Below are positions 12,229-27,602 of a stretch of DNA of 32,000 bases, piece by piece. How positions within the stretch are numbered: position 1 is the first letter of the stretch; every line of letters starts with the position of its first letter. A program made the position numbers and the translations under genes. The DNA comes from Melioribacteraceae bacterium (GTDB lineage: Bacteria; Bacteroidota; Ignavibacteria; Ignavibacteriales; Melioribacteraceae), in NCBI GenBank assembly GCA_963667875.2, contig CAXXGC010000009.1, positions 474,312 to 506,311 of the forward strand. The letters are read 5' to 3'. The notes beneath the pieces were generated by a model. That model searched no databases. It was not told where the DNA came from and worked only from the letters and a program-made list of their open reading frames with translations.

Positions 12229-12960
12229 ATGGTTAAAAAGTTAAAATCTACAGTACATACTGCCCGAACTATAATGTTTGAAGAATTGTCCAGAGTTATT
12301 AATAGTACTATTGATGATAATAAGTATATTGATTCCCTTAATGATAATATTGCCGGCAAACAAACAAAAACAAATCAAAAAAGAACTAACTCGGCTCTTT
12401 TAAGTTTATATAAGCTTGATATAAACTATACTCCCTTTTTATGTTTTAAGTATTTTTGGCAAATGGCTGATGAAAAAGAGCTGCCGATAATTACTTTGTT
12501 ATACGCAATTTGCAATGATTATTTACTTAATGAAAGTACCGATGTAATACTTTCAACACCAATTGGTGAAAAAGTTGAAAAACTAAAGTTAGAAGAGAAC
12601 ATCGAATTATTTAATCCCAACAAATATACCCCAAAAACCAAAGGGTCTTCCACAAGGAATTTAATTAGTTCGTGGAAACAAGCCGGGTATATTTCCAACG
12701 ATAAATTATGTACACGTAAGGAACAAAATCACACGTACCGGACTGTGGCGTTTGCCTTTTTAATGGCATATTTAAGTGGTGAAAGAGGAGATTTTATATT
12801 ATCAAGTAAATGGGTAAAAACACTTGCGTTAAACGATTCACGAATACGTGAATTTGCCTCGGAAGCGTCAAAACGTGATTTGCTTAAATATCAGTATGCG
12901 GGTAATGTATCTGTAATTTCTTTTGACAATCTTTTCAAAAGGTTAAATATAAATGTCTAA
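12229..12960 (+). CDS. brxA: BREX protein BrxA (DUF1819-type), called mainly by position
   Basis: First gene of a canonical brxA-brxB-brxC-pglX-pglZ-brxL array, with an 8-nt overlap onto brxB. I did not verify specific DUF1819 residues. Confidence 0.65.
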   Translation: MVKKLKSTVHTARTIMFEELSRVINSTIDDNKYIDSLNDNIAGKQTKTNQKRTNSALLSLYKLDINYTPFLCFKYFWQMADEKELPIITLLYAICNDYLLNESTDVILSTPIGEKVEKLKLEENIELFNPNKYTPKTKGSSTRNLISSWKQAGYISNDKLCTRKEQNHTYRTVAFAFLMAYLSGERGDFILSSKWVKTLALNDSRIREFASEASKRDLLKYQYAGNVSVISFDNLFKRLNINV

Positions 12961-13498
12961 CTTAGTGGATCGTCTTTTAACAGCGGTTGATATTGTGCTT
13001 CGAGAACCTTGGGCTACTTCGTTATCCGGGAAAGAACGAATGTGGTTTCTTGTTTACGATCCCGCCGAACAAAGGAAAATAAATTTACGCTTGGGAGATT
13101 TTGAATCCGTAGCAGTTAAAGCAGGTAAAAAGTGGATTGAGATCTCTTTTAAGAATGTTTTCCCAACTTGGATGGCAAACCATGAGTACAGGGATGAGTA
13201 TTTTATGGATCCCGATGGGTTAGTGGATCAACTTGAAGCGGATTTTAAAAATTATGCAATTAACCATTGCATTAAAGAACTTAATAAACTTGGGACAGAT
13301 AATAATACCTTAATTGCACTTAAAGATGTATCCTCTTTGTTTGGATTTGTAAGGTTATCTTCAGTTTTAGACGGAGTAGCCAATTCATTTAATGGCAGGG
13401 TGCTTGTTTTTTTTCCGGGTGAATTTGAAAAAAATAATTATAGATTGTTAGATGCCAGAGATGGCTGGAGTTATTTGGCACGACCAATTATTGCATAG
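12953..13498 (+). CDS. brxB: BREX protein BrxB (DUF1788-type)
   Basis: Size (181 aa), position between brxA and brxC, and the N-terminal segment ERMWFLVYDPAEQRKINLRL typical of DUF1788 proteins as I recall them. Confidence 0.7.
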   Translation: MSNLVDRLLTAVDIVLREPWATSLSGKERMWFLVYDPAEQRKINLRLGDFESVAVKAGKKWIEISFKNVFPTWMANHEYRDEYFMDPDGLVDQLEADFKNYAINHCIKELNKLGTDNNTLIALKDVSSLFGFVRLSSVLDGVANSFNGRVLVFFPGEFEKNNYRLLDARDGWSYLARPIIA

Positions 13499-13510
13499 GA
13501 GATTTTGGTT

Positions 13511-16500
13511 ATGAAAAACAATGAACTTTTTACTCTTAATCCTTCTGAAAATAATCTGATAAACGATGGTGTAGTAGAAATTAACACCGCAAAAGATGAC
13601 AAAGGGTTACAGATATTACATCACGAAATTAAGACATTTGTTTGTGAAGGCGAATATCAGAACGGCATTTATAGAATTTTGGATACTTACCTAAAACATC
13701 TTAATCAACCCAAACAACCGGCGGCTTGGGTAAGCGGATTTTTTGGAAGCGGTAAATCTCATCTGGTAAAAATACTTGGTTATTTATGGGAAGATTTTGT
13801 TTTCCCTAACGGAGATACCGCAAGAACATTAAAACCTTTACCTGCGGATATAAAAGATTTATTAGTAGAGTTAGATAGAAAGCAAAAGATATATGGTAAA
13901 CTTGCTGTTTCGGGTACACTTAAAGACTTTCCATCCGCGGATATTAGATATTCGTTTTTACAGTTATTCCTTAACGCCCTTGATCTTCCGCCTCAGTATC
14001 ATCATTTTAAGTTTGTTTATTGGGCAAAACAAGAAGGTATTTATGACGATCTTAAAACTATTATTGAAACTCAGGGTAAAGATTTTAGAAAAGAATATGA
14101 AAATCTATTTGTCTCTTCAACACTTGCAAAAGCCGTTTTACAATTAAAACCTGAATTTGCCGAAAATGAAGCAAAAGTAAAAGAAAATTTTAAGGCAAAT
14201 TTCAAAAGGGTTGATAATATTAACCGACAAGAATTAATTGATACTATAAAAAATGAAGTATTGCCATTAACTTTTGGCGATAAAGTGCCATGTACAATAA
14301 TTGTGTTGGATGAAGTACAACAATTTATTGGAACCGATGGAAATAAAACAATAGATATCCAAAATCTTGCCCAAGATATATGCAGTAATTTTGACAGTAA
14401 ATTTTTGCTTGTTGGTACAGGTCAAAACGCTCTTTCCGAAACACCGTTTTTACAACCTTTGCAGGATCGTTTTACAATAAAAGTTTCGTTATCGGATACT
14501 GATGTTGAAACTGTTACAAGAAAAACCGTATTAGAAAAAAAACCGTCGGTAGTTGCTACAATTAATAACAAACTGGAATCCGTATTGGGCGAAATATCGC
14601 GCAATTTGTCGGGTACCGAATTTGGTTATGTTACAAGTGAAAGAAATACTCTAGTTGCCGATTATCCTATTTTACCGGCTACGCGAAAATTTTGGAAAAA
14701 AATTCTTCAATCAATTGATACAGCCGGTACTTCGGGCCAGCTTAGAAGCCAGCTTAGGATAGTTGATGAGAGCATTAAACATGTAGCTGAAAAAGAACTT
14801 GGGGTTGTTGTTCCAGCGGATTTTATATTTGAACAAAAGCAGCAACAGCTTTTACAAAACGCATTATTATTAAATGAAACAAACAATATTATACAGGAAC
14901 GTAAAGTTAAAGGTGGCGATTCGCTTTTAGAGGGACGTATTTTAAGTGTTGTGTTTTTAATTGATCAACTGCCAAATGATTTACCAGGCGGTATTCTCAA
15001 ATCGGATGGAGTTACTATTGAAAACTTACTTATTGAAAACTTAAATGAATCATCCGATATCATAAGAAATAAAGTAAAAGAACTTATTAAAAAAATGGTT
15101 GAGGAAAAAGTTCTTATGCTTGTTAATGATGAATATAAATTACAAACAAAAGTTGGGGCTGAATGGGAACAAGAATATACAGCTCATGCTGTTAATATTA
15201 ATAGTACCGGTGATGATAAAATTCAACAAATTAGAAAAGATAAAATCAGCCGATTTTTTAAGGATAAAACCAAAACAATTAATATTCTGCATGGCAATTC
15301 AAAACAAAGAAGAGAATTTGAAATTTGGGACAAAACAGAAAAACCCAATTTGGAAAATAAACTTAATATTTGGATACGCGACGGTTGGTTTGAAAATGAA
15401 CTTGTAGTGTTAAACGAAATTAGAGCTGAAGGAGCCGATAAACCTTTAGCATATACTTTTGTTAGAAAATTACGCGATATGGATTTGCGTTTGGAAATTA
15501 TTAAATATATAGCTGCCGATTTAACAATTCAATCCAAAGGGCTTCCTTCAACACCGGAAGGTGAACAAGCAAAAAAAAGTATGGAAACGCGCAAAGAAAT
15601 GGCTAATAAAACGATTGAAGATATAGTTGAAAAAATATGTAATGATTCCATTGTATATTTAGCCGGAGGGAATAAAGTTGAAGTGGGTGACACAAAAGCC
15701 AACATTGACGAAGCACTTAATAATATTGCGGATAGACAGTTCCCCGAATTTAGAAGTAAAGCGGATTACAAAGATTGGGATAGGGCTTTATTAAAAGCTA
15801 TTGCAGGCGAACCTGATGCGTTAAAGAAAATTTTATGGGATAAAGAACCAAAAGACCACCCTATGGCAATAGAAATTCTCCGTTTAATAGGTAATAATAA
15901 TATTACGGGAAAAGAAATACGAAATTATTTTACAAAGTCGCCTTATGGATGGAGTCAGGATGCTATTGATACAATTATAATAATGCTTAAAAATACAGAA
16001 CACATATCAGCATCGGAGCCTTTAATTAATCAGTCAAAAATAGCTAACTCGGTTTTCAAAAAAGAAATCCATACTATTTCGGCATCCGAAAGAATAAGAA
16101 TTAGAAAGTTATATCAAGAAACCGGTATTATGTGTAAACCGGGCGAAGAGTTTTTACATTCAAACACATTGTTTAATAAATTAAAAGAATTAGCATCAGG
16201 AATTAGCGGAGATGCTCCAAAACCCGAACCGATTAATATCCAATTTATTAAAGAAATTGAAAATTTAGATGGTAATGAAAGGTTGCTGCGGATTGTTGAA
16301 GAGCAAGAAGACTTAAAAAATAAATATCTTGAATGGAAAAATAAACTTGAATTAATTAAAAAACGAGAACCTCAATGGATTTTATTAAGTGAATTAGCAA
16401 AATATGCTTCATCTCTACAAGATGTTGATTCTCTGCTTGCGGAAATAGAGGCGATAAATGAAAACCGTTTGATTTTAATGGAACCCGATCCTATTCAGCC

Positions 16501-16942
16501 CAAATTGTTAGCTATTGTTGATAAATTAAAAGCAAGATTAAATGAATTAAAGGAAGAATATATAACCCTATATGATTTGAAAATGAATAATTTGCAAGCA
16601 AATGAATATTTTGTAAAACTTCCTCAAACACAAAAACATTTTATCCTTGCCAAACATCAATTATTAAAAAAACCGGAAATAAAAGCATTAGACGCAAATA
16701 CGCTTAAAAACGAATTATTACAAGTATCTTTGACGGGTTGGGAAACAAAAATTGCTGCGTTGTTAAGCCAATTTGAATCAGCTACGGAAGATTCAATAAA
16801 GTTATCGGTACCCGAAGCCGAAACATTTTTATTGCCTAGAAGGACTATTAATACAGCCGGAGATATTGAAATATACATACACGAAATTAAGACAAAATTA
16901 GATAAATTAATAAAAAATGGGAAATCGATTATCCTTAAATAG
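13511..16942 (+). CDS. brxC: BREX P-loop ATPase BrxC/PglY
   Basis: About 1140 aa. Walker A is GFFGSGKSH (13736-13762) and Walker B-like is CTIIVLDEVQQF, followed by a long helical C-terminal region. I prefer ATG 13511 with AGGAG (13497-13501) 9 nt upstream; the track uses TTG 13505. Confidence 0.85.
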   Translation: MKNNELFTLNPSENNLINDGVVEINTAKDDKGLQILHHEIKTFVCEGEYQNGIYRILDTYLKHLNQPKQPAAWVSGFFGSGKSHLVKILGYLWEDFVFPNGDTARTLKPLPADIKDLLVELDRKQKIYGKLAVSGTLKDFPSADIRYSFLQLFLNALDLPPQYHHFKFVYWAKQEGIYDDLKTIIETQGKDFRKEYENLFVSSTLAKAVLQLKPEFAENEAKVKENFKANFKRVDNINRQELIDTIKNEVLPLTFGDKVPCTIIVLDEVQQFIGTDGNKTIDIQNLAQDICSNFDSKFLLVGTGQNALSETPFLQPLQDRFTIKVSLSDTDVETVTRKTVLEKKPSVVATINNKLESVLGEISRNLSGTEFGYVTSERNTLVADYPILPATRKFWKKILQSIDTAGTSGQLRSQLRIVDESIKHVAEKELGVVVPADFIFEQKQQQLLQNALLLNETNNIIQERKVKGGDSLLEGRILSVVFLIDQLPNDLPGGILKSDGVTIENLLIENLNESSDIIRNKVKELIKKMVEEKVLMLVNDEYKLQTKVGAEWEQEYTAHAVNINSTGDDKIQQIRKDKISRFFKDKTKTINILHGNSKQRREFEIWDKTEKPNLENKLNIWIRDGWFENELVVLNEIRAEGADKPLAYTFVRKLRDMDLRLEIIKYIAADLTIQSKGLPSTPEGEQAKKSMETRKEMANKTIEDIVEKICNDSIVYLAGGNKVEVGDTKANIDEALNNIADRQFPEFRSKADYKDWDRALLKAIAGEPDALKKILWDKEPKDHPMAIEILRLIGNNNITGKEIRNYFTKSPYGWSQDAIDTIIIMLKNTEHISASEPLINQSKIANSVFKKEIHTISASERIRIRKLYQETGIMCKPGEEFLHSNTLFNKLKELASGISGDAPKPEPINIQFIKEIENLDGNERLLRIVEEQEDLKNKYLEWKNKLELIKKREPQWILLSELAKYASSLQDVDSLLAEIEAINENRLILMEPDPIQPKLLAIVDKLKARLNELKEEYITLYDLKMNNLQANEYFVKLPQTQKHFILAKHQLLKKPEIKALDANTLKNELLQVSLTGWETKIAALLSQFESATEDSIKLSVPEAETFLLPRRTINTAGDIEIYIHEIKTKLDKLIKNGKSIILK

Positions 16943-16973
16943 TTTAGTTGGTTAAAACAAAGAGAAAAAGGTT

Positions 16974-19900
16974 ATGGCAGTACTTACCACACAACAGCGT
17001 AATAAGTTAGAATCAATTGTTATAAATGCAAGAGTGATGGCCGAAAACGGTGCTCGCAATGCTCTTGTTAGTTTTGGGGTTAATGCGGAGTCTCCTTTTG
17101 TTCATATGTCCACCGAACAAAAAACATTGCGCAACCGACTTAGGTATAAAGCCAGATTGTTGGGTGATGAACTTTTGGCTAGCGGGCAACAGCAAATAAA
17201 CCGATTGGCTTATGAGTTAGCTTATGAATATTGGCATAAAATGCTTTTTACAAAGTTTTTAGAGGCTAACGGATTATTAATACATCCCGATGGTGTGCCT
17301 GTTACAATGGCGGAATGTGAAGAACTGGCAAATGAAGTAGGAGTTGGTGATAAATGGGATGTGGCGGCAAATTACGCCTCTAAAATGTTACCCGCTATTT
17401 TTAGAGTAAACGACCCATTAATGAAAATAGAATATGCCGCGGAAGACAGGATTAAACTTGAAAGTTTGTTAGATGGTTTGGACACGGAAATATTTGTGGC
17501 CGATGATGCTCTCGGGTGGGTGTATCAGTTTTGGCAAAGTGAGGCAAAAGCAAAAATTAACGCAAGCGGCGATAAAATTAATGGAGAAAAATTACCCGCC
17601 GTTACACAACTTTTTACCGAACCTTACATGGTGCATTTTTTAATTGATAATACTTTAGGAGCGTGGTGGGTAAGTAGAAATCCGGGAGTTACTCCTCCTG
17701 TTAATTTTGAGTATTTACGAACATTTGATGATGGGAAACCGGCGGCAGGAAGTTTTGAAGGTTGGCCGGATAAAACAGCAGAAATAACTTCTCTTGATCC
17801 TTGTATGGGTTCGGGACATTTTCTTGTATCCCTATTTACCGTTTTTGTTAACCTAAGGATGTTTGAGGAAGGACTAAACAAAGAGGAAGCCACCGATAAA
17901 GTAATTTTAGAAAACTTACACGGTCTTGAAATAGACCCCCGGTGTACACAAATTGCGGCGTTTAACCTTGCTTTAACGGCGTGGAAATTTTGTGGTTTTT
18001 ATAAAATTTTGCCCGAAATGAATTTAGCGTGTAGCGGAATTGCGCCAAAAGGGAAAAAAGAAGATTGGGTAAAGTTAGCCGGTGGAATAAAAGACTCGGT
18101 TCAAAAATCAAGAGCTGAAAACGGCATGAAAGTACTTTATGATCATTTTCAATTAGCTCCCGAACTTGGAAGTCTTTTAGACCCTTCAACAATTAAAGCC
18201 GATGTTTTTACCGCTAGTTTTGAAGAGCTTCAACCTTTATTAAATAAAGCTTTGTTAAGTGAAATTGGCGATGAACAAACAGAAATTGGGGTTGTTGCGG
18301 CCGGAATTGCTAAAGCGGGTCAGTTGTTGGCTAAAAAATATACTTTACAAATTACTAATGTGCCATATCTTTCGAGGGGTAAGCAAGATAAAATAATTGC
18401 TGATTATTGCGATAAATATTTTAATGAAGCTAAAGGTGACTTATCAACCGTCTTTTTTTCTAAAATGATAAAATTCAATACGTTTGGGGGTCTTTCTTGT
18501 TGTGTGATTCCGCAAAATTGGCTTTTTCTTACTTCAAATAAAAAATTACGAGAAAAATTATTAAAGGGTGAGTCATGGTGTTTTGTTGCAAAATTGGGGA
18601 CAAAAGCATTCCAAACACCTATGTGGGATTTTAATGTCATGCTTATAGCGATAGCTCATAAAACACCCACAATTGATCAAGTTTTTATTGGTGTTGATGT
18701 TTCGGAGGCAAATAACACGCAAATAAAAAATAGTTCTATTAAAACAGTTGCATTTACACCATTTATTCAGAAAAAGCAATTGAGCAATCCAGAATACAAA
18801 GTTATTTTGGCTGAATTTGACAAGTTGCAATTTTTGAATATTTATGCTTTTTCATATCAAGGAATAAAAACCGGTGACGATTCGAGGTTTAGATTTTCTT
18901 TATGGGAAATAACGAATTACAATATTTGGAAGCCTTTACAGAGTACAGTTAAGAAAACAACGTTATTCGGTGGATTAAGTGATGTGATACCATGGTATGA
19001 CAATGGACATTATTTGAGTAGAAGGCAGGGTGTGGCTGGTTGGGGTAAGCATGGTGTATCCGTAAGTCAAATGGGATCCCTTCCCTGTTCGATTCATCTC
19101 GGTTATTTATTTGACTCCAATATCTCAGCACTTATACCTAAGAAGGATATTTATAATTTCCCGATTTGGGCTTACTGCTCCTCCGAAAATTATTGCAAGG
19201 ATGTAAGAATCATTGATCAAGCCCTTGCAGCTTCTAATACAGCTATGGCTCAAGTAAATTTCGACATTGAATATTGGCAAAAAATTGCATCTGAAAAATA
19301 CCCAAACGGTTTACCCAAACCATATAGTGACGACCCAACACAATGGTTATTCCATGGAAATCCAATAAAAGCGGATAACCCTTTACAGGTAGCTGTAGCA
19401 CGTTTGTTGGGGTATAAATGGCCTGCGGAAAGTGATGAAAATATGGAGTTGGCCGATGAAGCTAAAGCTTTAATAAAAACAATAAAACAATTTGATAAAT
19501 TAGCTGATGAAGACGGCATTGTATGCTTACCATCTGTAAACGGTGAATTTTCGGCAGCTGACAGACTGAGAAACTATTTGCAAACCGTTTTGGGAGATGA
19601 TTGGAATAACCAATTATTAGAACAATTTTTGGCAAAAGAAAATACAAAAAAAACTAACCTTGAAGATTGGTTAAAAGAAGAATTTTTTGAACAACATTGT
19701 AAACTATTTAATAACCGCCCTTTTATTTGGCACATTTGGGACGGAAGAAAAGACGGATTTAGTGTTTTAGTTAATTACCATAAACTAACAAAAGAAAATT
19801 TACAAAAGCTTGTATTTACATATTTAGGTGATTGGATAAGGCAATGTGAAGCAAAAAAGAAATTAGGCGAAAGTGGTGCCGAAGGATTATTAAGCGCGGC

Positions 19901-20192
19901 GGTAAAATTAAACGATAAATTAAAAGCAATTCTTGAAGGCGAAAACCCGTTAGATATTTTTGTTAGATGGAAACCGATTGAAAAACAACCTATCGGTTGG
20001 GAACCCGACTTAAACGACGGTGTAAGGTTAAATATAAGACCTTTTATTATAGCAGGAGTATTAAGAAAAAACCCAAACATTAAATGGGGCATAGATAGAG
20101 GTAAAAATCCTAAAAACTCGCCATGGGGTGAAATTAGAGATAATGATAGACATTTGAGTTTGGAAGAGAAATTAAGAGCAAGGGGGAAATAG
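16974..20192 (+). CDS. pglX: BREX N6-adenine DNA methyltransferase PglX
   Basis: 1072 aa. The SAM-binding motif I is LDPCMGSGHF (17793-17822). The catalytic motif IV reads NVPY (18357-18368) in place of the usual NPPY/F. Its position between brxC and pglZ fits pglX. Confidence 0.9.
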   Translation: MAVLTTQQRNKLESIVINARVMAENGARNALVSFGVNAESPFVHMSTEQKTLRNRLRYKARLLGDELLASGQQQINRLAYELAYEYWHKMLFTKFLEANGLLIHPDGVPVTMAECEELANEVGVGDKWDVAANYASKMLPAIFRVNDPLMKIEYAAEDRIKLESLLDGLDTEIFVADDALGWVYQFWQSEAKAKINASGDKINGEKLPAVTQLFTEPYMVHFLIDNTLGAWWVSRNPGVTPPVNFEYLRTFDDGKPAAGSFEGWPDKTAEITSLDPCMGSGHFLVSLFTVFVNLRMFEEGLNKEEATDKVILENLHGLEIDPRCTQIAAFNLALTAWKFCGFYKILPEMNLACSGIAPKGKKEDWVKLAGGIKDSVQKSRAENGMKVLYDHFQLAPELGSLLDPSTIKADVFTASFEELQPLLNKALLSEIGDEQTEIGVVAAGIAKAGQLLAKKYTLQITNVPYLSRGKQDKIIADYCDKYFNEAKGDLSTVFFSKMIKFNTFGGLSCCVIPQNWLFLTSNKKLREKLLKGESWCFVAKLGTKAFQTPMWDFNVMLIAIAHKTPTIDQVFIGVDVSEANNTQIKNSSIKTVAFTPFIQKKQLSNPEYKVILAEFDKLQFLNIYAFSYQGIKTGDDSRFRFSLWEITNYNIWKPLQSTVKKTTLFGGLSDVIPWYDNGHYLSRRQGVAGWGKHGVSVSQMGSLPCSIHLGYLFDSNISALIPKKDIYNFPIWAYCSSENYCKDVRIIDQALAASNTAMAQVNFDIEYWQKIASEKYPNGLPKPYSDDPTQWLFHGNPIKADNPLQVAVARLLGYKWPAESDENMELADEAKALIKTIKQFDKLADEDGIVCLPSVNGEFSAADRLRNYLQTVLGDDWNNQLLEQFLAKENTKKTNLEDWLKEEFFEQHCKLFNNRPFIWHIWDGRKDGFSVLVNYHKLTKENLQKLVFTYLGDWIRQCEAKKKLGESGAEGLLSAAVKLNDKLKAILEGENPLDIFVRWKPIEKQPIGWEPDLNDGVRLNIRPFIIAGVLRKNPNIKWGIDRGKNPKNSPWGEIRDNDRHLSLEEKLRARGK

Positions 20193-21164
20193 ATGAAAAC
20201 CGAATTTGATATATGCACTATTTTTAATATGCCTTTCCCGGCAATGTCTGTTTATGATTTTTATCAATACGTAAAGGGAAATGAGGTTCGTTCTTATTGG
20301 GATCAATCGACAATTTATTTTATATGTCAACGTGCTGTTATATATTTTGATGAATTAACAGTCGGTGAAGCATCTGTCTCAGCAAAAATAAAACAAAGAG
20401 GCACCTCAAAAGAAATTGACATTGAATTACCTTTATGTAAAGGTAGTGATTTGAATCCTGAAGGCGATAGCCTAACAGTTGATGTCCGATTCTATTCGGT
20501 TACTCACGAAGAAGTACCACCTTTTAATAATGTCGCTGGTTTTCAATTATTTGATAAGGATAAAAATTTTATTGTGTGGTTTACTCCGGAAAGATTAATT
20601 TATGATCACGTTATACGAGGCTTAAATGTAAAATTTAATGGGGACTTCCATCAATTTTTAGATTACAATGTGCATTATATCGGACAAGCTCAAGATCAAA
20701 AAATTTGGGAAAGGTTAAAAAATCATGAGACACTTCAAAGAATTATTGCTACAGAACACCCTTATATCAATGGAGAATATTCGTCTTATGAATTTGTTTT
20801 AATATTTTTACAAAACATAGGTGCTGATATAATTAATTATATTTTACCAGAAGAATCTGATTTTGTGTCTGATTCTTCCAAAACTAAATTTATAGAGGAT
20901 CTGTCTAATTTAGAACAAGAACAAATTCTTGATAAAATTAAAAAAGAAATAACAAATGATATTGAGGCTTATCTCGTAAATCTTTTTGAGCCTAAGCAAA
21001 ACAAAATTCTTTTCAAAAATTATCCAAACATTACGAATGGATTAAAATCCCTCGGGTATAATAATATTACTCACGAATTTATGGTATTAGGTGATTTGCA
21101 CACAGAAGAGGGCTCGTACTTTATTAAAACGGCCCCAATATATATTAATAAGAGCGATCAATGA
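20193..21164 (+). CDS. hypothetical protein embedded in the BREX operon, 323 aa; weak GIY-YIG-like motif
   Basis: The ATG immediately follows the pglX stop, with GGGGGA 5 nt upstream. The stop overlaps the pglZ start (ATGA). GDFHQFLDYNVHYIGQAQDQKIWERLKNH (20640-20726) loosely fits GIY-x9-YIG-x-A...R...H, but the spacing is 2 aa longer than canonical and no clear downstream E/N motif is present. Confidence 0.7.
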   Translation: MKTEFDICTIFNMPFPAMSVYDFYQYVKGNEVRSYWDQSTIYFICQRAVIYFDELTVGEASVSAKIKQRGTSKEIDIELPLCKGSDLNPEGDSLTVDVRFYSVTHEEVPPFNNVAGFQLFDKDKNFIVWFTPERLIYDHVIRGLNVKFNGDFHQFLDYNVHYIGQAQDQKIWERLKNHETLQRIIATEHPYINGEYSSYEFVLIFLQNIGADIINYILPEESDFVSDSSKTKFIEDLSNLEQEQILDKIKKEITNDIEAYLVNLFEPKQNKILFKNYPNITNGLKSLGYNNITHEFMVLGDLHTEEGSYFIKTAPIYINKSDQ

Positions 21165-23476
21165 ACAACTCCCTTTTGAATAAAATTAGCAAGAGCTTAA
21201 AAGATATGAGTAAGAGTAACTCAAATCTGATTACTCCACCTGAAGTTATATTATGGCCCGATCCCGAAAAACAATGGGAATCTATCATTCCAATTTTAAG
21301 AATGGAGTTCCCCGAACTGTTAACATTGGGTGAATTTTTGCCCGATAAAAAACAAGGGCCCGCTATTTGGATAAAATGTATGGTTGCCAAGGTTTTGCCC
21401 CAGGCGGATTGGTCTAATGATACAATACCCATAATTTATATGCCGGGAATATCGAAGGGGGATTTCAAAAACATTTCCTCCGCCGGTATGGATTTGCAGC
21501 CGTTAATGGAATACCAATATACAGGAACGATTTTTACACAGATTAACGGCAAAGAATGGACGGTGTTGGCTTTTTTTGAAAATGAACAATTAGGTTTAGG
21601 ATTAAAAGTAGCACAAGATAAATTAACACGCGAAACTTTGGTTAAAGTATTACCAACTATTTTTCAAGATCATACTATTAAGTATCCCGCTATTATTGAT
21701 GTTGATTTTTTGAATTCATTATTGTTCCCCGATGTTTATCCTTCTGTTTTGAATTGGATGTGTAAAGGAGACGAATTTATAAAATCACTTCCGCTTAATA
21801 AACAGGATGTGTTTATTAATTTATGCCGCTCGCGATTTGAGTTTGACCCGGATTATAAAAACATTATTGCAATTGTTCAAATGTTTGGGATGCAAAATAA
21901 CGCATGGAGACATGTTTGGCAGTTGTTTGCATCATCGCCAAAAAAATATCCAGAATTGGAAGAATTGTTAAGATTAGCAAAACCTGAAGATATGGGTTAC
22001 GCGTTATTTGAGGTTAAAAAAGAAAGTTGGCCTCAAATAAATGAAACTTTAGAAAACGAACTAAGAGCATTGTTACTTAATATAACAAATTTACACCCCA
22101 AAGAAATTTTAATTAAGTTAAACGAATTAGAAGAAAACCATTCCGAAAGAAGGGGTTGGGTTTGGGCTGAATTTGGTTATTCATCATTAGCGCAAACATT
22201 ACCTCATTTGTTATTAATGACTAAGTTATCAACAAAAGCGTTTCCATTTACAACTATTGATGACTTAACACACTATTATGTTACCGATGGTTGTAAAATT
22301 GACCAAGAAATGAGAAAATCTTTATTGTGTGTAAAGACGGAACAAGATAAAGATGTGATAATAAAATTAATTAATGTAATTTATAAACCTTGGCTGGAAA
22401 CGATAACTAATAAGTTTCAAACTTTGGTAACAACTAATCCTTCCTTGTTTATAGTAAAAGATATATTAGCTGAGTCTGATGAATATATACTTTTTGTTGA
22501 TGCGTTTAGATATGAACTGGCCCAAGAATTTATGGAAAGACTTAATAAACAGAAATATAAAATTGAACTTAATAATGTTTGGTCAGCTCTGCCAAGTTTA
22601 ACCCCAACCGCAAAGCCAAATGTTTCACCAATTGTTAAAGATATAAATCCAAATAGTAACTGTAATGAGTTTAGGCCGCAGCTTAATAATGGTAGAGATC
22701 TTCAAATAACACAGTTTAGAGAATTATTAGAGGAAAATAATTATAGGGTTGTTACTAACATTTCAACTATTGAAACCGGCCGAAACTATTGGCAGGAAAT
22801 TGGAGATATTGATACACGTGGACATGAGGAACAATCAGACATAATAAAACGGATAAACGAACTTTTTGATAAAATACAAGAGGTTTTAGAAACCGTATTT
22901 AATAAAGGTATTAACCGCATTAAAATAGTAACGGATCACGGATGGCTTTTATTGCCCGGCGGATTACCAAAGGAAGATTTGAATAAAAACTTAACGGAAA
23001 CTCGCTGGGGTAGATGTGCGCTTATTAAAGAAGGCGCGGAAACAAATTTATTGCAACTTCCGTGGCGTTGGAATCCAAATATTTTTATAGCTTATGCTAC
23101 GGGTATTTCGTTTTTCAAAAAAAATGAAGAATATGCTCACGGAGGAATATCGTTACATGAATGTCTTATTCCGGTGTTAACAATTGAAAAAATAGAGCAT
23201 TCAATTATTGAAGCCAAAATATCTACCATTAAATGGGTGGGATTAACATGCAAAGTTGAGACTATCCAAACACCCGATGGGTATAAAGTGGATTTAAGAT
23301 TAAATTATAATGTTGAGGAATCATCAATTGTTATAAGCAATAAAGAAAAAAAGGTTATTAACAATAAAATTTCAATTATGGTAGATGGTGACGCTGACCA
23401 AAAATCGGCAGTAGTTGTTTTAACAGATGAAAACGGAAGAATATTAGATAAAAAACCAACCTTGGTGGGATCATGA
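21161..23476 (+). CDS. pglZ: BREX alkaline-phosphatase-superfamily protein PglZ
   Basis: 771 aa. YILFVDAFRYELAQEF and IVTDHGWLLLPGG are PglZ-domain hallmarks. Its position fits pglZ, and a 4-nt overlap joins it to brxL. Confidence 0.85.
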   Translation: MNNSLLNKISKSLKDMSKSNSNLITPPEVILWPDPEKQWESIIPILRMEFPELLTLGEFLPDKKQGPAIWIKCMVAKVLPQADWSNDTIPIIYMPGISKGDFKNISSAGMDLQPLMEYQYTGTIFTQINGKEWTVLAFFENEQLGLGLKVAQDKLTRETLVKVLPTIFQDHTIKYPAIIDVDFLNSLLFPDVYPSVLNWMCKGDEFIKSLPLNKQDVFINLCRSRFEFDPDYKNIIAIVQMFGMQNNAWRHVWQLFASSPKKYPELEELLRLAKPEDMGYALFEVKKESWPQINETLENELRALLLNITNLHPKEILIKLNELEENHSERRGWVWAEFGYSSLAQTLPHLLLMTKLSTKAFPFTTIDDLTHYYVTDGCKIDQEMRKSLLCVKTEQDKDVIIKLINVIYKPWLETITNKFQTLVTTNPSLFIVKDILAESDEYILFVDAFRYELAQEFMERLNKQKYKIELNNVWSALPSLTPTAKPNVSPIVKDINPNSNCNEFRPQLNNGRDLQITQFRELLEENNYRVVTNISTIETGRNYWQEIGDIDTRGHEEQSDIIKRINELFDKIQEVLETVFNKGINRIKIVTDHGWLLLPGGLPKEDLNKNLTETRWGRCALIKEGAETNLLQLPWRWNPNIFIAYATGISFFKKNEEYAHGGISLHECLIPVLTIEKIEHSIIEAKISTIKWVGLTCKVETIQTPDGYKVDLRLNYNVEESSIVISNKEKKVINNKISIMVDGDADQKSAVVVLTDENGRILDKKPTLVGS

Positions 23477-25524
23477 CAATGAAATTGGACGAAATCGATC
23501 AAATTGCAACAAAAGGTTTTGAAGGTTATGTAGTACGAAAAGATTTACTTGAACAGTTCAGAAAAACCTATCCGGTACCAACTTATGTTATTGAATTTTT
23601 ATTGGGTAGATATTGTGCTACAACCGATGAACAGGAAATACAAGAAGGATTGGAAATTGTTAAACGTCAACTTTCTGATCGCACAGTTAGGCCGGGTGAG
23701 GAAGAATATTTCAAATCGAAAGCAAGAGAGTTGGGTTCGATAAAAATTATTGATATTATTACCGCCAAATTAGATTCCGCAACCGATAGTTATATTGCTA
23801 CACTTCCAAGTTTAAGATTAAATAAAATTAGAATTACCCCCGAAATGGTAAATTCAAACGACAGGATGCTGACAGGTGGTTTTTATGCGGAAATAGAATT
23901 GGAATATGATAGTGCTATAGCTCAAGAAAATAACGGCAGACCCTTTGGCATTACAAGTATAAGACCAATTCAACTTTCACAAAGAAATGTGTTAGATTCC
24001 TTGTACACGGGAAGAAAAGCTTTTACTGTTGGACAATGGAAAGATTTTTTAATCCGCAGCGTTGGAATGGAACCGTCGGAATTATCGGAAAAAGCAAAAA
24101 ATGTTTTATTTGTAAGAATGATACCTTTTGTTGAACGAAACTATAACATGGTTGAGCTTGGCCCAAAAGGAACGGGTAAGTCGCATATATACCAGCAAAT
24201 ATCCCCATATTCACATCTTGTTTCAGGGGGTAAAACCACAGTTGCCCGAATGTTTGTAAATATGTCAACCGGAGAACGCGGTCTTGTTTGTAAATACGAT
24301 GTTGTGTGTTTTGATGAGGTTAACGGTGTTTCGTTTGATCAGAAAGATGGCGTAAACATTATGAAAGGATATATGGAAAGTGGTGAGTTTAGCAGAGGGA
24401 AAGAACCTATAAGAGCCGATGGCAGCGTAGTTATGGTTGGCAACTTTGAAGTGGATGTTGAACATCAACAACGTATAGGTCATTTGTTTGGGCCGCTTCC
24501 TCAGGAGATGCGGGACGATACAGCGTTTATGGATCGTATTCACGCTTATGTTCCGGGTTGGGATTTCCCTAAACTTAACAAGTCGTTTTTTACAGGTCAT
24601 TTTGGTTTAGTAAACGATTTTTTAGCTGAATGTTTTACACGATTACGAGATACAAACAGAATAACCTCTGTGTTGCCCCGCATAGATTTTGGTGGAGCTT
24701 TAAGCGGCAGAGATAATGCCGCGGTAAATAAAACGTTAAATGGGCTGTTAAAACTTATGCAGCCCAATCCGAATGAACCGATATCGGATGAATTATTAGA
24801 ATGGGCGATAAAAATATCTTTAGAATATAGAAGAAGAGTAAAAGAGCAACAAAAAAGGATAGGCTCGGCGGAATTTCGAAACACTCATTTTAGTTATCGT
24901 ATTGGTGACGAGGGTATTGAAACATTTGTGGTTACTCCCGAAGTTCATAGCGAAAATACAATTGGAGAGGATCCATTACCTCCGGGGCAAGTTTGGACAA
25001 TTAACACTGGGAATATGGATGAGTCGGCAGGACTTTATAAAGTGGAAGTTAATATTGGTCCCGGCAGCGGAGTAAGAGTTCTAAACAAACCTACCCCACC
25101 TCAATTTTTAGAAAGTGTTCGTTACGCCGAACAAAATTTGTATAGTAAAACAAAAGATCTTGTTGGGGATAGGGATCCGAGATTACATGAATTTTCCATA
25201 CAATTACGATCTTTTGATGTTTCTAAAAGCGGCAGCGGAATAGGCATTGCGGTATTAGTAGCATTATCAAGTGCACTGTTAGAAAAAAACATTAAAGGGG
25301 GCTTATTAATAGTTGGACAGTTAAATCTTGGCGGTTCAATTGATAACTTATATAATGCCGTAAATTTAGCCGAATTAGCAATTGAAAAGGGTTCTACAAC
25401 ATTGTTAATTCCCCTTAATGCTCGTAAACAATTAAATGATCTATCGGATGAAATGGTTACAAAAATTAACATCCAATATTACTCCAATTTACGAGATTGT
25501 TTGTTAAAAGCTTTGGTGGAGTAA
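23473..25524 (+). CDS. brxL: BREX Lon-like protease/ATPase BrxL
   Basis: 683 aa. Walker A is GPKGTGKSH (24160-24186) and Walker B is VVCFDEV. The C-terminal region is Lon-protease-like (SKSGSGIGIAVLVALSSAL...GGLLIVGQLNLGGSI). ATG 23479 is an alternative start. Confidence 0.85.
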   Translation: MTMKLDEIDQIATKGFEGYVVRKDLLEQFRKTYPVPTYVIEFLLGRYCATTDEQEIQEGLEIVKRQLSDRTVRPGEEEYFKSKARELGSIKIIDIITAKLDSATDSYIATLPSLRLNKIRITPEMVNSNDRMLTGGFYAEIELEYDSAIAQENNGRPFGITSIRPIQLSQRNVLDSLYTGRKAFTVGQWKDFLIRSVGMEPSELSEKAKNVLFVRMIPFVERNYNMVELGPKGTGKSHIYQQISPYSHLVSGGKTTVARMFVNMSTGERGLVCKYDVVCFDEVNGVSFDQKDGVNIMKGYMESGEFSRGKEPIRADGSVVMVGNFEVDVEHQQRIGHLFGPLPQEMRDDTAFMDRIHAYVPGWDFPKLNKSFFTGHFGLVNDFLAECFTRLRDTNRITSVLPRIDFGGALSGRDNAAVNKTLNGLLKLMQPNPNEPISDELLEWAIKISLEYRRRVKEQQKRIGSAEFRNTHFSYRIGDEGIETFVVTPEVHSENTIGEDPLPPGQVWTINTGNMDESAGLYKVEVNIGPGSGVRVLNKPTPPQFLESVRYAEQNLYSKTKDLVGDRDPRLHEFSIQLRSFDVSKSGSGIGIAVLVALSSALLEKNIKGGLLIVGQLNLGGSIDNLYNAVNLAELAIEKGSTTLLIPLNARKQLNDLSDEMVTKINIQYYSNLRDCLLKALVE

Positions 25525-25559: not shown

Positions 25560-27602
25560 ATGAGTTCTCTTTTAAGAAAAAAATACTTTTGGATAATCTT
25601 CATTGCAAATTTGGCAATTTGCATTGGAATAAACATATCCTACTTGTGTTATCCAGTCATTGGTGGACTTGTGAAAGACAGCTGGTCAATCACTCTTTTT
25701 GTAGGGCAGATAACAATTTTTATCGTATTTTTTACATTCGTTCAATTCTCCTTTTCAAGCGTTGAGATTCCAAAAGATATAATTAGAAGGTATATTATAG
25801 AAGCTGATAATACAACACTTTATATTGGATATAATTTGTCAGCTATTGTAATACTTGGGTATGGTTCAATTTGTTCATTTAACACGAAAGGGGATAATTA
25901 TTCCATAAATGGGCTTGTTAGTATACTTGTTGTTTTGGGATCTGTTGTTTCATCAACTGCTTATATGTTTTGGTTAGTACGACATACCTCCTTTCAAGAC
26001 ATTGGCAAAATGATTGTTGAATCTATTAATTTTGAAGGAATTGTAAATCTTCAAGATAAAATCCCTTTGTGGAGAAAAGAATTTAAGGATGAATATATAA
26101 ATATTGCAAGGTACTTTAATTATCCAGAGGTTCGTAATGTTGAGACAAAATATCATACAGATATTTACCCTTTTAGGCATGGATTAGTTGAAAAAATAAA
26201 CTTAAAAAAATTAGCAGAATCTGTTATAAAGAGTTTGCCTAATGACATTAAAATAATTAAAGTATATAGTTTTGTAATTCCAGGAAAAATTGTGGCGGAA
26301 TACGAGAATTTTTTTAGTATAAAATATAATTCAAAATCATCTCAAGACATAGGCTATGAAGAGATAGTCGGATATCAACTTAGTCAAGGAATTGAACAAT
26401 TTGTTAAATTTAATGAGGAGTACAAGAATTTTTATTCGTCAATTGTTTATCTATTATCAATAGTATACTCCCAAAAGAGAACAACTTTAGGTCTTGAAAC
26501 TAATGTTATAATTGACGTTTTACGAGATAAGCTGTTTTTATGGGGAAGCCAAAGCAATATAGTGGATGAACAGGAATTTAATCCAATGCAGGTGTTGTTA
26601 CAAGTATTTTTAACTTCAATTGATAACTATTTGTTTAAAAGTGAATTAAATGAAAATACAATTTCCGTAACCTTCCGATTGCTATATATGTTACGAGTAT
26701 TAGCTAGTGATAAAAAAATGGTTGCCGAGCATGCTGGAATAATGAGGATTCTCAATTATTTACATTATAAAATTATTATTAATTATCCGAGTTATCATAA
26801 AAAGCTAGAGATGAGTGTGTCGCATATTTATGAAGTTTCACTAAGATATACATTATACAAAAAGGAACTCTTGAAAGAATTATTTGTTTCAAATTTGGAT
26901 TATCTAAGTACATTATTGAATACAACAATTGATCATGCTGCAATTGCAGTTTGTAATTTAGTAAAATGTTATTATAAACTTGATCCACATGAATCATTAA
27001 AAATATTACATGAGAATATTCAAGAATTTTTAAATTATTCTTCCTTTATTGATGTAGTTAATGTTGAAGATGAAGACATTAAATTTTTTATCAACGAGAT
27101 AAATATAAAATTAAGTGATAAAATATTTTTTTTGGCAATAATAATTCTTAGAAATATTGAGGATTCTAAAATAGAACCTGATAGATTTATTAAATTAATC
27201 ATTCCAATTGTATCCTATAAAAAAGATTCAAGCTGTTTGCCAAATTATTATTACCAATTATTTACTTTAATAGAATTCCAGAAAGAACTTCTTGAAGATG
27301 TTGATGCACAATTAAAAGAAGAAATTGTTCTTGAGCAATTACATTGGGAAAATATGCCTGAAACAAAGTATTATAAATACGAAAAAATATTTGGACTAAT
27401 ACTCCTTTACTTAAAAATTAATGTCTTGGATGGTGAGTATACTGGATTGTTATCCTTGCTAAGAAAAGTAGATGTGGCATATTATAAAGGAGTTCTAGAA
27501 AAATATGACAGAAAATTACTGTCTGCAATGATGGGTATAAATACTGGTGAGATTAATAGATATTTGGAAATTGTTTTGAGTGATTTGAGTGAAAGAAAAT
27601 AA
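25560..27602 (+). CDS. hypothetical membrane protein, 680 aa (about 4 N-terminal TM helices plus a large helical domain)
   Basis: GAGG lies 4 nt upstream of the ATG, and only 35 nt separate it from the brxL stop on the same strand. Hydrophobic segments include FWIIFIANLAICIGI, ITLFVGQITIFIVFFTFV, YNLSAIVILGYGSI and LVSILVVLGSVVSSTAYMFWL. No enzymatic motif was recognised. Confidence 0.75.
   Translation: MSSLLRKKYFWIIFIANLAICIGINISYLCYPVIGGLVKDSWSITLFVGQITIFIVFFTFVQFSFSSVEIPKDIIRRYIIEADNTTLYIGYNLSAIVILGYGSICSFNTKGDNYSINGLVSILVVLGSVVSSTAYMFWLVRHTSFQDIGKMIVESINFEGIVNLQDKIPLWRKEFKDEYINIARYFNYPEVRNVETKYHTDIYPFRHGLVEKINLKKLAESVIKSLPNDIKIIKVYSFVIPGKIVAEYENFFSIKYNSKSSQDIGYEEIVGYQLSQGIEQFVKFNEEYKNFYSSIVYLLSIVYSQKRTTLGLETNVIIDVLRDKLFLWGSQSNIVDEQEFNPMQVLLQVFLTSIDNYLFKSELNENTISVTFRLLYMLRVLASDKKMVAEHAGIMRILNYLHYKIIINYPSYHKKLEMSVSHIYEVSLRYTLYKKELLKELFVSNLDYLSTLLNTTIDHAAIAVCNLVKCYYKLDPHESLKILHENIQEFLNYSSFIDVVNVEDEDIKFFINEINIKLSDKIFFLAIIILRNIEDSKIEPDRFIKLIIPIVSYKKDSSCLPNYYYQLFTLIEFQKELLEDVDAQLKEEIVLEQLHWENMPETKYYKYEKIFGLILLYLKINVLDGEYTGLLSLLRKVDVAYYKGVLEKYDRKLLSAMMGINTGEINRYLEIVLSDLSERK

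What the first reader, a model, noticed from the sequence alone, without database searches (positions are those of the whole stretch)
20193..21164. Unknown 323-aa gene translationally coupled into the BREX operon between pglX and pglZ
Its ATG directly abuts the pglX stop and its stop overlaps the pglZ ATG (ATGA). It is therefore expressed as an integral part of the operon rather than as a later insertion with its own signals. From memory, BREX loci sometimes embed accessory defence genes, for example a GmrSD-type BrxU on a plasmid BREX and PARIS inside a Salmonella BREX locus. This protein matches none of the accessory types I know. It has only a loose GIY-YIG-like stretch (YNVHYIGQAQDQKIWERLKNH). 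By eye the gene is more AT-rich than its BREX neighbours. It could be a new BREX accessory effector, modulator or anti-anti-BREX factor.
Basis: partly seen in the sequence, partly recalled or inferred. Interest (0 to 1): 0.62.

Follow-up and report, generated by a model that had tools for sequence, protein, structure and literature searches.

The report
Orphan nuclease-like cargo gene inside BREX
A real, intact 323-residue gene of a rare unannotated family, probably a divergent GIY-YIG nuclease, fills a swappable "cargo slot" between two core genes of a BREX anti-phage operon, the slot where sister operons carry known accessory defence genes, so it is a good candidate for a new embedded defence gene.

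Summary
ORF 20193-21164 (+) encodes 323 aa. Its ATG abuts the pglX TAG and its stop overlaps the pglZ ATG (ATGA). It matches no Pfam, NCBIfam, PHROG, PADLOC or PDB entry. Its family is rare: about 196 clusters among 1.84 billion representatives.

Residues invariant across 80 members (Y162, G164, R174, H178, E258; N270 >=90%) follow GIY-YIG catalytic spacing. Several profile tests beat their nulls. Curated thresholds and fold searches fail, so I call it a probable divergent GIY-YIG nuclease (~0.65).

The slot is a cargo hot-spot. A same-genus BREX (PglZ 94%, BrxL 99% identical) carries a BrxU-like GmrSD gene there instead. Homology breaks at the pglX stop and resumes 77 nt into pglZ. Other related BREX loci hold HEC-06, PDC-M07 or PDC-M38 there, and Salmonella holds ATPase+DUF4435.

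The three closest X copies are all BREX-embedded and form one clade. All other homologues lie outside BREX, have no conserved partner, and mostly sit in defence or mobile contexts.

Best reading: an autonomous single-gene accessory defence nuclease, long resident in this BREX lineage. Embedding itself is a published phenomenon, so this is a new member of a known kind. The scan has not noted this family on other DNA.

The parts
12229..25524 (+). Type 1 BREX operon brxA-brxB-brxC-pglX-X-pglZ-brxL, which hosts the cargo gene
   Evidence: Pfam BrxB, BrxC_wHTH, Eco57I/N6_Mtase, PglZ and BrxL_N/BrxL_ATPase/Lon_C. PADLOC BrxA 7e-56.
16974..20192 (+). pglX (methyltransferase). Its 3' end is the left boundary of the cargo slot and supplies the purine-rich AGGGGGA (20181-20187) ahead of the X start codon
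   Evidence: The last 638 nt are 95.6% identical to the sister genome, up to the TAG.
20193..21164 (+). Gene X, 323 aa: a rare unannotated family and candidate embedded defence nuclease
20193..20582 (+). N-terminal domain (residues ~1-130), mixed helices and beta strands, confidently modelled over residues ~40-160 (pLDDT ~90), with no recognisable fold relative. Conserved motifs are YPAMSVYEF, IYxICQRP, IKQRG, NVAG and WxTPERL. Presumed recognition/sensor domain (inference).
   Evidence: AF2 model. Foldseek found nothing. Conservation. Replaced by other N-termini in remote relatives that match only the core.
20625..21047 (+). Putative divergent GIY-YIG catalytic core (residues ~145-285)
20664..20735 (+). 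YIG...R...H half of the core: Y158-N-V-H-Y162-I-G164-Q-A...R174-L-K-N-H178-E-T-L
   Evidence: Y162, G164, R174 and H178 are invariant in 80 sequences. Aligns with IIYVGKAKNLKNR of the genome's own UvrC.
20811..20942 (+). Variable, low-confidence insert (residues ~207-250) between strand beta3 and the Glu helix. It is absent from canonical GIY-YIG domains.
   Evidence: pLDDT 44-54. Poorly conserved columns.
20955..21026 (+). E...N half of the core: N255-D-I-E258-A-Y-L-V-N-L-F-E-P-K-Q-N270-K-I-L-F-K-N-Y-P278
   Evidence: E258 and P278 invariant, N270 >=90%. Aligns with EALMLENNLIKELKPRYN of UvrC.
21161..21164 (+). ATGA overlap between the X stop and the pglZ start (translational coupling)
   Evidence: An analogous TAATG overlap occurs in L001.
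21161..21237 (+). First 77 nt of pglZ, the right-hand recombination boundary of the cargo cassette. It diverges from the sister genome although the rest of pglZ is 92% identical.
   Evidence: blastn and alignments. PglZ residues 1-26 match at 9/20 against 91% for the rest.
21161..23476 (+). pglZ, the right flank of the slot
   Evidence: Pfam PglZ.

Best explanation
X is an intact, self-contained accessory defence gene carried as cargo in the variable slot between pglX and pglZ of a type 1 BREX operon. It is not a BREX core subunit.

The protein most likely is a metal-dependent DNA endonuclease. A divergent GIY-YIG-type catalytic core (residues ~145-285) contains Y162, R174, H178, E258 and N270 and is interrupted by a ~45-residue insert. 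It is joined to an N-terminal domain of unrecognised fold (residues ~1-130) that presumably recognises the target.

X is transcribed and translated with BREX by coupling to pglX and pglZ. It probably gives a second, BREX-independent layer of protection. By analogy with the GmrSD/BrxU-type enzymes that occupy the same slot in sister operons, it may act against phages that escape BREX.

Shown here: the gene is real and coupled; the slot is a cargo hot-spot; the family is autonomous and partner-less; the BREX-embedded copies form one clade that diverged about as much as the operon. Inferred: nuclease chemistry (probable), defence function (by embedding and context), and target (unknown).
For: Gene and coupling.

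Cargo slot:
- A same-genus genome, G325, has PglZ 94%, BrxL 99% and the PglX C-terminus 98% identical. It carries a 570-aa GmrSD_N/HEC-05 (BrxU-like) gene in the slot.
- Nucleotide homology stops at the pglX TAG and resumes 77 nt into pglZ.
- G146 holds HEC-06/Orf5 plus PDC-M07A/B there. G270 holds PDC-M38A/B. G370 has nothing.
- Salmonella LT2 holds ATPase+DUF4435 there, and these genes are dispensable for methylation (PMC9009780).
- 'Guilt by embedding' is a validated discovery principle (bioRxiv 10.1101/2024.01.29.577857). Auxiliary nucleases embedded in BREX are widespread (PMC12839542).

Autonomy:
- Only 3 of ~20 informative contexts are BREX.
- No partner gene is shared across 19 loci.
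- Other neighbours are SIR2+HerA, DrmD-like SNF2/MTase/ResIII, PLD_Helicase+DUF1156_MTase, PDC-S06, SMODS, a DAC cyclase, DUF4238, RelA_SpoT, CHAT+VapBC, IS elements, a resolvase and an integrase.

Long residence in BREX:
- Window, L001 and L077 form a clade with 95/99 support.
- X is 62% identical to the L001 copy, against 40-83% for the six BREX proteins.
- The PglZ N-terminus pattern marks the G325 state as derived.

Nuclease core:
- Invariant Y162, G164, R174, H178 and E258, with N270 >=90%. The spacings R-4-H and E-12-N match UvrC, from my own knowledge and in register with the genome's UvrC.
- 13 of 80 members weakly hit PF20815 and one hits PF01541 (20.2 bits against a 22.6 cut-off). 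No other family recurs.
- A home-made GIY-YIG HMM hits 18 of 178 members at E<=0.1, against 0 of 178 reversed sequences.
- The 8 known GIY-YIG ORFs of the genome rank 11-514 of 14,993 against the X core HMM, p~2e-5.
- hhalign scores 21.2 (P 0.004) against column-shuffled nulls of 10.3 +/- 1.9, maximum 16.6.
Against: - No curated model reaches threshold for X itself.
- The literal GIY half-motif is absent; the sequence is G150-D-F.
- Foldseek of the full model against PDB and BFVD, and of the core alone against PDB, finds no GIY-YIG structure and nothing else significant.
- Profile searches against PDB sequences find nothing.
- The core helices are modelled with only moderate confidence (pLDDT 62-74).
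- Defence function rests entirely on genomic context.
- Co-divergence with BREX and strict translational coupling in three diverged operons could equally mean functional dependence on BREX.
Confidence: 0.58

Rival explanations
1. X is a BREX-dependent auxiliary subunit. It would be an effector or modulator that works only together with PglX, PglZ or BrxC, for example supplying or regulating DNA cleavage at unmethylated BREX sites, rather than an autonomous system.
For: ATG/stop coupling to pglX and pglZ is conserved in the window, L001 and L077. The BREX-embedded copies form one clade. They have diverged about as much as the core genes: X 62% against PglX 60% and BrxC 64%. This suggests long co-evolution. 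BREX is proposed to recruit auxiliary or backup nucleases (PMC12839542).
Against: A sister operon with 94-99% identical core proteins lacks X and carries GmrSD instead. G370 has an empty slot. Most family members, including one at 50% identity, are outside BREX. The Salmonella slot cargo is dispensable for methylation (PMC9009780).
Confidence: 0.13
2. The GIY-YIG resemblance is spurious and X is not a nuclease. It would be an embedded defence-related protein of a new fold with another activity, such as a sensor of anti-BREX proteins, a DNA binder or a regulator.
For: No structural match to any GIY-YIG protein or any other fold. No curated threshold is reached. The first half-motif is missing. 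The protein folds better as one unit than as a separate C-terminal domain (pLDDT 75.8 against 65.4).
Against: Five independent sequence-level tests point to GIY-YIG and beat their nulls. Exactly the residues that are catalytic in GIY-YIG enzymes are the invariant ones. Remote relatives keep only this core.
Confidence: 0.2
3. X is a selfish free-standing GIY-YIG homing-endonuclease-like gene that inserted between two conserved genes and spreads by gene conversion, with no benefit to the host.
For: It is inserted precisely between two conserved genes. The divergence extends into the first 77 nt of pglZ, which resembles a co-conversion tract. The core looks GIY-YIG-like. 39 of 80 members match a phage protein family, phrog_15714.
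Against: The alternative allele is not an empty site but another defence gene. The tract pattern marks the GmrSD allele, not X, as the incoming one. The genome holds a single copy. There are no matches in 50,697 phage records. The domain order (catalytic core C-terminal, no NUMOD/IENR1-type DNA-binding tail) differs from known homing enzymes. The family is rare and sits at many unrelated sites.
Confidence: 0.06
4. X is a degraded fragment or pseudogene of a known mobile gene.
For: None beyond the absence of annotation.
Against: Full-length, stop-free homologues of 305-334 aa occur across at least five phyla, with 33 invariant columns.
Confidence: 0.01

Closest known systems
BrxU / HEC-05 (GmrSD-family type IV restriction enzyme embedded in BREX; PMC8565348; bioRxiv 10.1101/2024.01.29.577857)
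   Same: It is a single-gene accessory module nested, co-oriented and tightly packed inside a type 1 BREX operon. In the same-genus genome G325 a HEC-05 homologue occupies exactly the slot that X occupies here. Both lack a cognate methylase and a partner gene.
   Different: There is no sequence or domain relationship. X lacks the DUF262 DGQQR NTPase and the DUF1524 HNH domains. X is 323 aa against ~570-600. In pEFER, brxU lies between brxC and pglX. Modification dependence is demonstrated for BrxU but is only conjecture for X.
GIY-YIG nuclease superfamily (UvrC/Cho N-terminal domain, Pfam PF01541, GIY_YIG_2 PF20815)
   Same: X has invariant Tyr-x-Gly, Arg, His (+4), Glu and Asn (+12) in the canonical order and spacing. 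Its predicted secondary-structure order is beta-beta-alpha-alpha-beta-...-alpha. Profile similarity exceeds the nulls.
   Different: The first GIY half-motif is replaced by G-D-[FI]. A ~45-residue insert separates beta3 from the Glu helix. X scores below all curated thresholds and has no structural hit. The core sits in the C-terminal half, behind a novel N-terminal domain.
Salmonella LT2 StySA BREX accessory pair STM4493/STM4494 (ATPase + DUF4435, PARIS-like) and the PDC-M07/PDC-M38 ATPase pairs
   Same: They occupy the same pglX-pglZ junction as non-core cargo (PMC9009780).
   Different: They are two-gene ABC-ATPase-based modules. X is a single gene with no NTPase motif.
Auxiliary/backup nuclease effectors of BREX and BREX-related systems (PMC12839542)
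   Same: A nuclease-like gene encoded within the core operon, flanked on both sides by BREX genes.
   Different: That survey lists PD-(D/E)XK, HNH, HKD, TOPRIM/OLD, HEPN, PIN and Schlafen. The term GIY-YIG does not occur in the paper.

Membership tests
GIY-YIG nuclease superfamily | YIG half-motif (Tyr-x-Gly on strand beta2) | tested here: met
   Y162 and G164 are invariant in 80 diverse members. They lie in predicted strand 157-165.
GIY-YIG nuclease superfamily | GIY half-motif about 9-12 residues upstream on strand beta1 | tested here: not met
   The position holds G150-D-[FI]. Only the Gly is conserved. Y158 is conserved in the close family but at non-canonical spacing.
GIY-YIG nuclease superfamily | Arg on helix alpha1 after YIG, with His or Tyr four residues later | tested here: met
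   R174 and H178 are invariant. They align with the Arg of UvrC and of small GIY-YIG proteins from the same genome.
GIY-YIG nuclease superfamily | Metal-binding Glu and an Asn about 12 residues later | tested here: met
   E258 is invariant and N270 is >=90% conserved. DaEkaLinalkPkyN aligns with EALMLENNLIKELKPRYN of UvrC.
GIY-YIG nuclease superfamily | Score above the curated family threshold (Pfam PF01541/PF20815, NCBIfam) | tested here: not met
   X itself has no hit. The best family member scores 20.2 bits against a 22.6 cut-off. 13 of 80 members have sub-threshold PF20815 hits.
GIY-YIG nuclease superfamily | Profile-level similarity exceeding a null | tested here: met
   18 of 178 members hit against 0 of 178 reversed. 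Rank enrichment p~2e-5. hhalign score 21.2 against shuffles of 10.3 +/- 1.9.
GIY-YIG nuclease superfamily | Three-dimensional fold matching a solved GIY-YIG domain | tested here: inconclusive
   There are no significant Foldseek matches. The core is modelled at pLDDT 62-74 and the isolated domain at 65, so the test is weak.
GIY-YIG nuclease superfamily | Metal-dependent phosphodiester cleavage | not testable with these tools
   Needs biochemistry.
GmrSD / BrxU type IV restriction enzymes | N-terminal DUF262 (DGQQR NTPase) and C-terminal DUF1524 (HNH) domains | tested here: not met
   X has no Pfam or PADLOC match. The sister-genome cargo does match: GmrSD_N 7.7e-30 and HEC-05 4e-112.
BREX type 1 core components | Present in type 1 BREX operons generally | tested here: not met
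   X is absent from G325, G146, G270 and G370 BREX loci. It is present only in the window, L001 and L077.
Embedded defence systems (guilt by embedding; bioRxiv 10.1101/2024.01.29.577857) | Nested between core genes of a known multi-gene defence system, in the same orientation | tested here: met
Embedded defence systems (guilt by embedding; bioRxiv 10.1101/2024.01.29.577857) | Homologues also occur apart from the host system, in other defence or mobile contexts | tested here: met
Embedded defence systems (guilt by embedding; bioRxiv 10.1101/2024.01.29.577857) | Demonstrated anti-phage activity | not testable with these tools
   Needs plaque assays.
Free-standing GIY-YIG homing endonucleases (I-TevI/Seg type) | N-terminal catalytic domain with a C-terminal DNA-binding tail; phage or intron borne; a cognate empty target site | tested here: not met
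   The core is C-terminal. There is no match in 50,697 phage records. The alternative allele carries another gene, not an empty site.

The most novel reading that the evidence does not exclude
X founds a new family of single-polypeptide restriction-type defence enzymes. A recognition domain of a previously unseen fold is coupled to a highly divergent GIY-YIG nuclease. The enzyme would be functionally interchangeable with GmrSD/BrxU in the pglX-pglZ slot of BREX. That is, it would be a new class of type IV-like (modified-DNA or BREX-escape-directed) nuclease that has co-evolved with one BREX lineage as its second line of defence.
Probability: 0.25. Interest if true: 0.65.

Novelty: new member of a known kind. 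Interest (0 to 1): 0.52.

Why it matters
BREX is widespread, yet how it stops phage is still debated. Accessory genes embedded in it have already yielded new defence enzymes such as BrxU, PARIS and the HEC systems.

This locus offers a natural allelic series. Near-identical BREX operons differ only in the cargo between pglX and pglZ, carrying either X or a BrxU-like GmrSD. That makes X a well-controlled candidate for a new accessory defence gene.

If its nuclease core and unknown N-terminal domain are confirmed, GIY-YIG would join the list of nuclease classes recruited by BREX, along with a new recognition module. The data also define the pglX stop codon and the first ~77 nt of pglZ as the recombination boundaries of the cargo slot. 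This is useful for mining more embedded genes.

Tried and rejected
Searches that found nothing:
- Direct family scans of X against Pfam, NCBIfam, PHROGs and PADLOC gave nothing significant. The only PADLOC hit is PtuA at 6.8e-4, a 58-residue stretch in the variable helical insert, which I treat as spurious.
- PDB sequence searches found no relevant hit. I tried X, the 80-member profile, the core profile and two distant members.
- Foldseek of the full model against PDB and BFVD gave nothing significant.
- Folding the C-terminal half alone gave a worse model (pLDDT 65) and no Foldseek match.
- A profile search of the 5.8-billion-protein database, meant to find Pfam-annotated intermediates, returned only unannotated family members.
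- No phage record matches X.

Weak or blocked tests:
- hhalign against small home-made GIY-YIG alignments gave the correct register but was not significant (P 0.015-0.17). Only a more diverse template gave P 0.004, which beat the shuffles.

Corrected or rejected ideas:
- I had recalled that brxU sits between pglX and pglZ in pEFER. The paper places it between brxC and pglX.
- I rejected the pseudogene or fragment reading, and recent foreign origin based on composition.
Full report
OBSERVATION. The window contains a complete type 1 BREX operon:
- brxA 12229-12960
- brxB 12953-13498
- brxC 13505-16942
- pglX 16974-20192
- pglZ 21161-23476
- brxL 23473-25524

These assignments come from Pfam and PADLOC. 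Between pglX and pglZ lies ORF 20193-21164 (+), 323 aa. The pglX stop TAG (20190-20192) is followed at once by ATG (20193). The ORF's TGA overlaps the pglZ ATG as ATGA at 21161-21164. A purine-rich AGGGGGA lies 5-11 nt upstream of the ATG, inside pglX. The operon shows no excess of promoter-like or terminator-like sites. GC content is 30.6%, against 31.6-37.5% for the BREX genes and 31.3% for the genome. X is therefore the most AT-rich gene of the operon, but it simply matches the genome. I call the gene X.

WHAT THE PROTEIN IS: DATABASE SEARCHES. X has no significant match in Pfam, NCBIfam, PHROGs, PADLOC or PDB sequences. It is nevertheless a real, conserved gene. The 5.8-billion-protein collection holds 19 other clusters at 33-62% identity, and none carries a Pfam domain or an informative name. 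An exhaustive HMMER scan of 1.84 billion representatives finds 196 at E<=0.001. Among 401 genomes sampled from the window's phylum, 7 have a match. Plasmid records that encode homologues annotate them as 'hypothetical protein'.

WHAT THE PROTEIN IS: CONSERVED RESIDUES. In an 80-member alignment with mean column identity 23%, the invariant residues are Y162, G164, R174, H178, E258 and P278. N270, P267, Y277 and a few others are >=90% conserved. From my knowledge of UvrC and I-TevI, this is the catalytic signature of GIY-YIG nucleases: Tyr-x-Gly, then Arg, His four residues on, and later Glu with Asn twelve residues on.

WHAT THE PROTEIN IS: TESTS OF THE GIY-YIG LEAD.
1. When each of the 80 members is scanned against Pfam, the only recurring family is GIY-YIG. 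Thirteen members hit PF20815 and one hits PF01541 (20.2 bits against a cut-off of 22.6). In one distant member the hit spans profile positions 27-134, which covers both half-motifs.
2. An HMM built from bona fide GIY-YIG genes of the window's own genome hits 18 of 178 family members at E<=0.1. It hits none of their reversed sequences. All hits fall on residues ~155-190.
3. The converse test searched an HMM of X residues 140-285 against all 14,993 ORFs of the genome. The eight Pfam-defined GIY-YIG ORFs rank 11, 29, 137, 163, 168, 172, 295 and 514. The rank-sum p is ~2e-5 with the paralogue triplet counted once. UvrC aligns in register on both halves: IIYVGKAKNLKNR, and EALMLENNLIKELKPRYN against DaEkaLinalkPkyN.
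4. hhalign against a 34-sequence GIY-YIG alignment scores 21.2 (P 0.004). Forty column-shuffled controls score 10.3 +/- 1.9, with a maximum of 16.6.
5. The predicted order of secondary-structure elements is strand 147-149, strand 157-165, helices 171-176 and 179-187, strand from 201, then helix 250-265. This fits the GIY-YIG topology with a ~45-residue variable insert.

WHAT THE PROTEIN IS: EVIDENCE AGAINST. The literal GIY half-motif is missing; the sequence is G150-D-F. No curated threshold is reached. Foldseek finds no significant match for the full model (pLDDT 75.8, pTM 0.77) in PDB or BFVD, nor for the isolated C-terminal half in PDB. The catalytic helices are modelled at only pLDDT 62-74, so the structural test is weak rather than negative. 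I rate 'divergent GIY-YIG-superfamily nuclease core' at about 0.65.

THE N-TERMINAL DOMAIN. The N-terminal ~130 residues are confidently modelled over residues ~40-160 (pLDDT ~90). They contain a mix of helices and beta strands and resemble nothing in the libraries. Remote relatives keep only the core and have other N-termini. That fits a recognition module joined to a catalytic module.

GENOMIC CONTEXT OF THE FAMILY. tblastn with the window's BREX proteins shows BREX around only the closest relatives. L001 has X at 62% identity in the same slot. L077 has X at 57% identity, starting 4 nt after a 52%-identical PglX. The next relative, at 50% identity (L078), and all more distant ones are outside BREX.

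Neighbours of the non-BREX copies are mostly conflict or mobile genes:
- SIR2+HerA on one side and a DrmD-like SNF2 helicase, a methylase and ResIII on the other (L002)
- PLD_Helicase plus DUF1156_MTase (L014)
- PDC-S06 and DUF4145 (L011)
- SMODS (L004)
- a DAC cyclase with DACNG/DACNH sensor domains (L010)
- DUF4238 (L022)
- RelA_SpoT and DUF6615 (L013)
- a CHAT protein, VapBC and an integrase; and a large SIR2 protein with IS elements (plasmids)
- IS66, a resolvase and a pRha-type gene

An all-against-all comparison of neighbours over 19 loci finds no partner shared beyond the BREX trio. The family is thus a self-contained single-gene module, spread over at least five phyla. In a maximum-likelihood tree the three BREX-embedded copies form one clade with 95/99 support.

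THE SLOT IS A CARGO HOT-SPOT. A genome of the same genus, G325, carries a BREX whose PglZ is 94%, BrxL 99% and PglX C-terminus 98% identical to the window's. It has no X-family match. Nucleotide identity of 92-96% runs up to the pglX TAG (window 20192) and resumes at window 21238, which is 77 nt into pglZ. Between these points G325 has 1.7 kb encoding a 570-aa protein that matches Pfam GmrSD_N (7.7e-30) and PADLOC HEC-05 (4e-112). HEC-05 is the BrxU type (bioRxiv 10.1101/2024.01.29.577857). That gene is packed just as tightly as X: TAG-AACG-ATG on the left, and TAA followed directly by GTG on the right.

Other in-phylum BREX loci with related PglZ:

| Locus | Cargo between pglX and pglZ |
|---|---|
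| G146 | HEC-06/Orf5 (GmrSD-like) plus PDC-M07A/B |
| G270 | PDC-M38A/B |
| G370 | none |

In Salmonella LT2 the same junction carries ATPase+DUF4435, which is dispensable for methylation (PMC9009780). In pEFER, brxU sits in a different slot, between brxC and pglX (PMC8565348). Every identifiable occupant of the pglX-pglZ junction is therefore a known or candidate defence module. This is the published 'guilt by embedding' argument. [quoted passage not shown]

DIRECTION OF THE SWAP. Between the window and L001, X is 62% identical. The core proteins are BrxA 40%, PglZ 49%, PglX 60%, BrxB 61%, BrxC 64% and BrxL 83%. X has therefore diverged in step with the operon. Over the first ~26 residues of PglZ, the window and G325 share only 9 of 20 aligned positions, against 91% over the rest. 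The window and L001 share 10 of 20, against 58% over the rest. The G325 5' end of pglZ thus appears to have arrived with the GmrSD cassette. X looks like the ancestral occupant in this BREX lineage, and G325 carries a recent replacement. The numbers are small, so this is an inference.

MECHANISM PROPOSED. X is co-transcribed with BREX and translationally coupled to pglX and pglZ. The protein is a stand-alone endonuclease. Its N-terminal domain selects the substrate, and its GIY-YIG-like core cleaves using E258 and N270 for the metal and Y162, R174 and H178 for catalysis (inferred). It has neither a partner methylase nor an immunity gene, and GmrSD enzymes can replace it. The most economical guess is therefore that it attacks DNA the host does not make, such as modified phage DNA. 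Alternatively it is held inactive until infection. Either way it would cover phages that evade BREX. This last step is conjecture; I rate the type IV-like reading at about 0.25.

COMPARISON AND NOVELTY. Embedding of accessory defence genes in BREX is established, including at this junction (PMC8565348, PMC9009780, PMC12839542, bioRxiv 10.1101/2024.01.29.577857). Three things are new here. First, the occupant is a rare, unannotated family absent from PADLOC 2.0 and from the nuclease classes listed for BREX in PMC12839542. Second, it is probably GIY-YIG with an unrecognised N-terminal domain. Third, there is a natural X/GmrSD allelic pair with defined recombination boundaries. I class it as a new member of a known kind, of moderate interest (0.52). 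Earlier scan notes on this window describe the BREX operon itself (e1-2629626), and I confirm that description. The family has not been noted on other DNA.

Noticed in passing
L086 (G146:C11) 2281-2379: A duplicated fragment of the pglX 3' end (residues 1027-1059, 58% identical to the window's PglX) lies between two stacked cargo modules (HEC-06/Orf5 and PDC-M07A/B) in the pglX-pglZ slot. It looks like a scar of cassette addition by recombination at the pglX terminus.
   Followed up: partly
L085 7032-8744 (-) and L086 7881-9608 (-): In two related BREX operons a ~570-aa gene sits in the brxC-pglX slot, where brxU sits in pEFER. It has only weak PADLOC hits (pAgo and SIR2-PNTD stretches, E ~1e-5), so it is another unidentified embedded gene.
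   Followed up: no
L077 2981-3524: In the third BREX-embedded locus, X is followed by a 53-aa ORF and then a partial gene with an HExxH-like motif (VAHELTHFYDH), not by pglZ. The slot there holds more than one cargo gene.
   Followed up: partly
window 25560-27602: The 680-aa gene 35 nt after brxL has a 43%-identical counterpart at the same position after brxL in the same-genus BREX (L074 3106-5187), although brxL itself is 99% identical. It has no Pfam, NCBIfam or PADLOC match. This may be a second variable BREX-linked position.
   Followed up: partly
G000:C13:278723-279827 (outside the window): Three tandem ~94-aa GIY-YIG genes lie about 450 bp apart. Similar tandem arrays occur in other genomes of the phylum, for example five copies in G041:C19:516155-517895.
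   Followed up: no
family-wide (alignment A2): 39 of 80 family members match phrog_15714, a phage protein family of unknown function (best E 4.6e-9). X itself does not match it, and no GenBank phage record matches X.
   Followed up: partly
genus level: This BREX operon is found in only 2 of the 7 genomes of the window's genus that were searched, and those two carry different cargo. BREX itself is accessory in this genus.
   Followed up: partly
window 5103-11876 and 27839-29698: The window is a dense defence island. A dGTPase (PADLOC 5e-73; NCBIfam dGTP triphosphohydrolase) lies at 10256-11680 (-). Earlier notes describe a QueC-like cassette upstream of BREX and an ART-like pair downstream.
   Followed up: no
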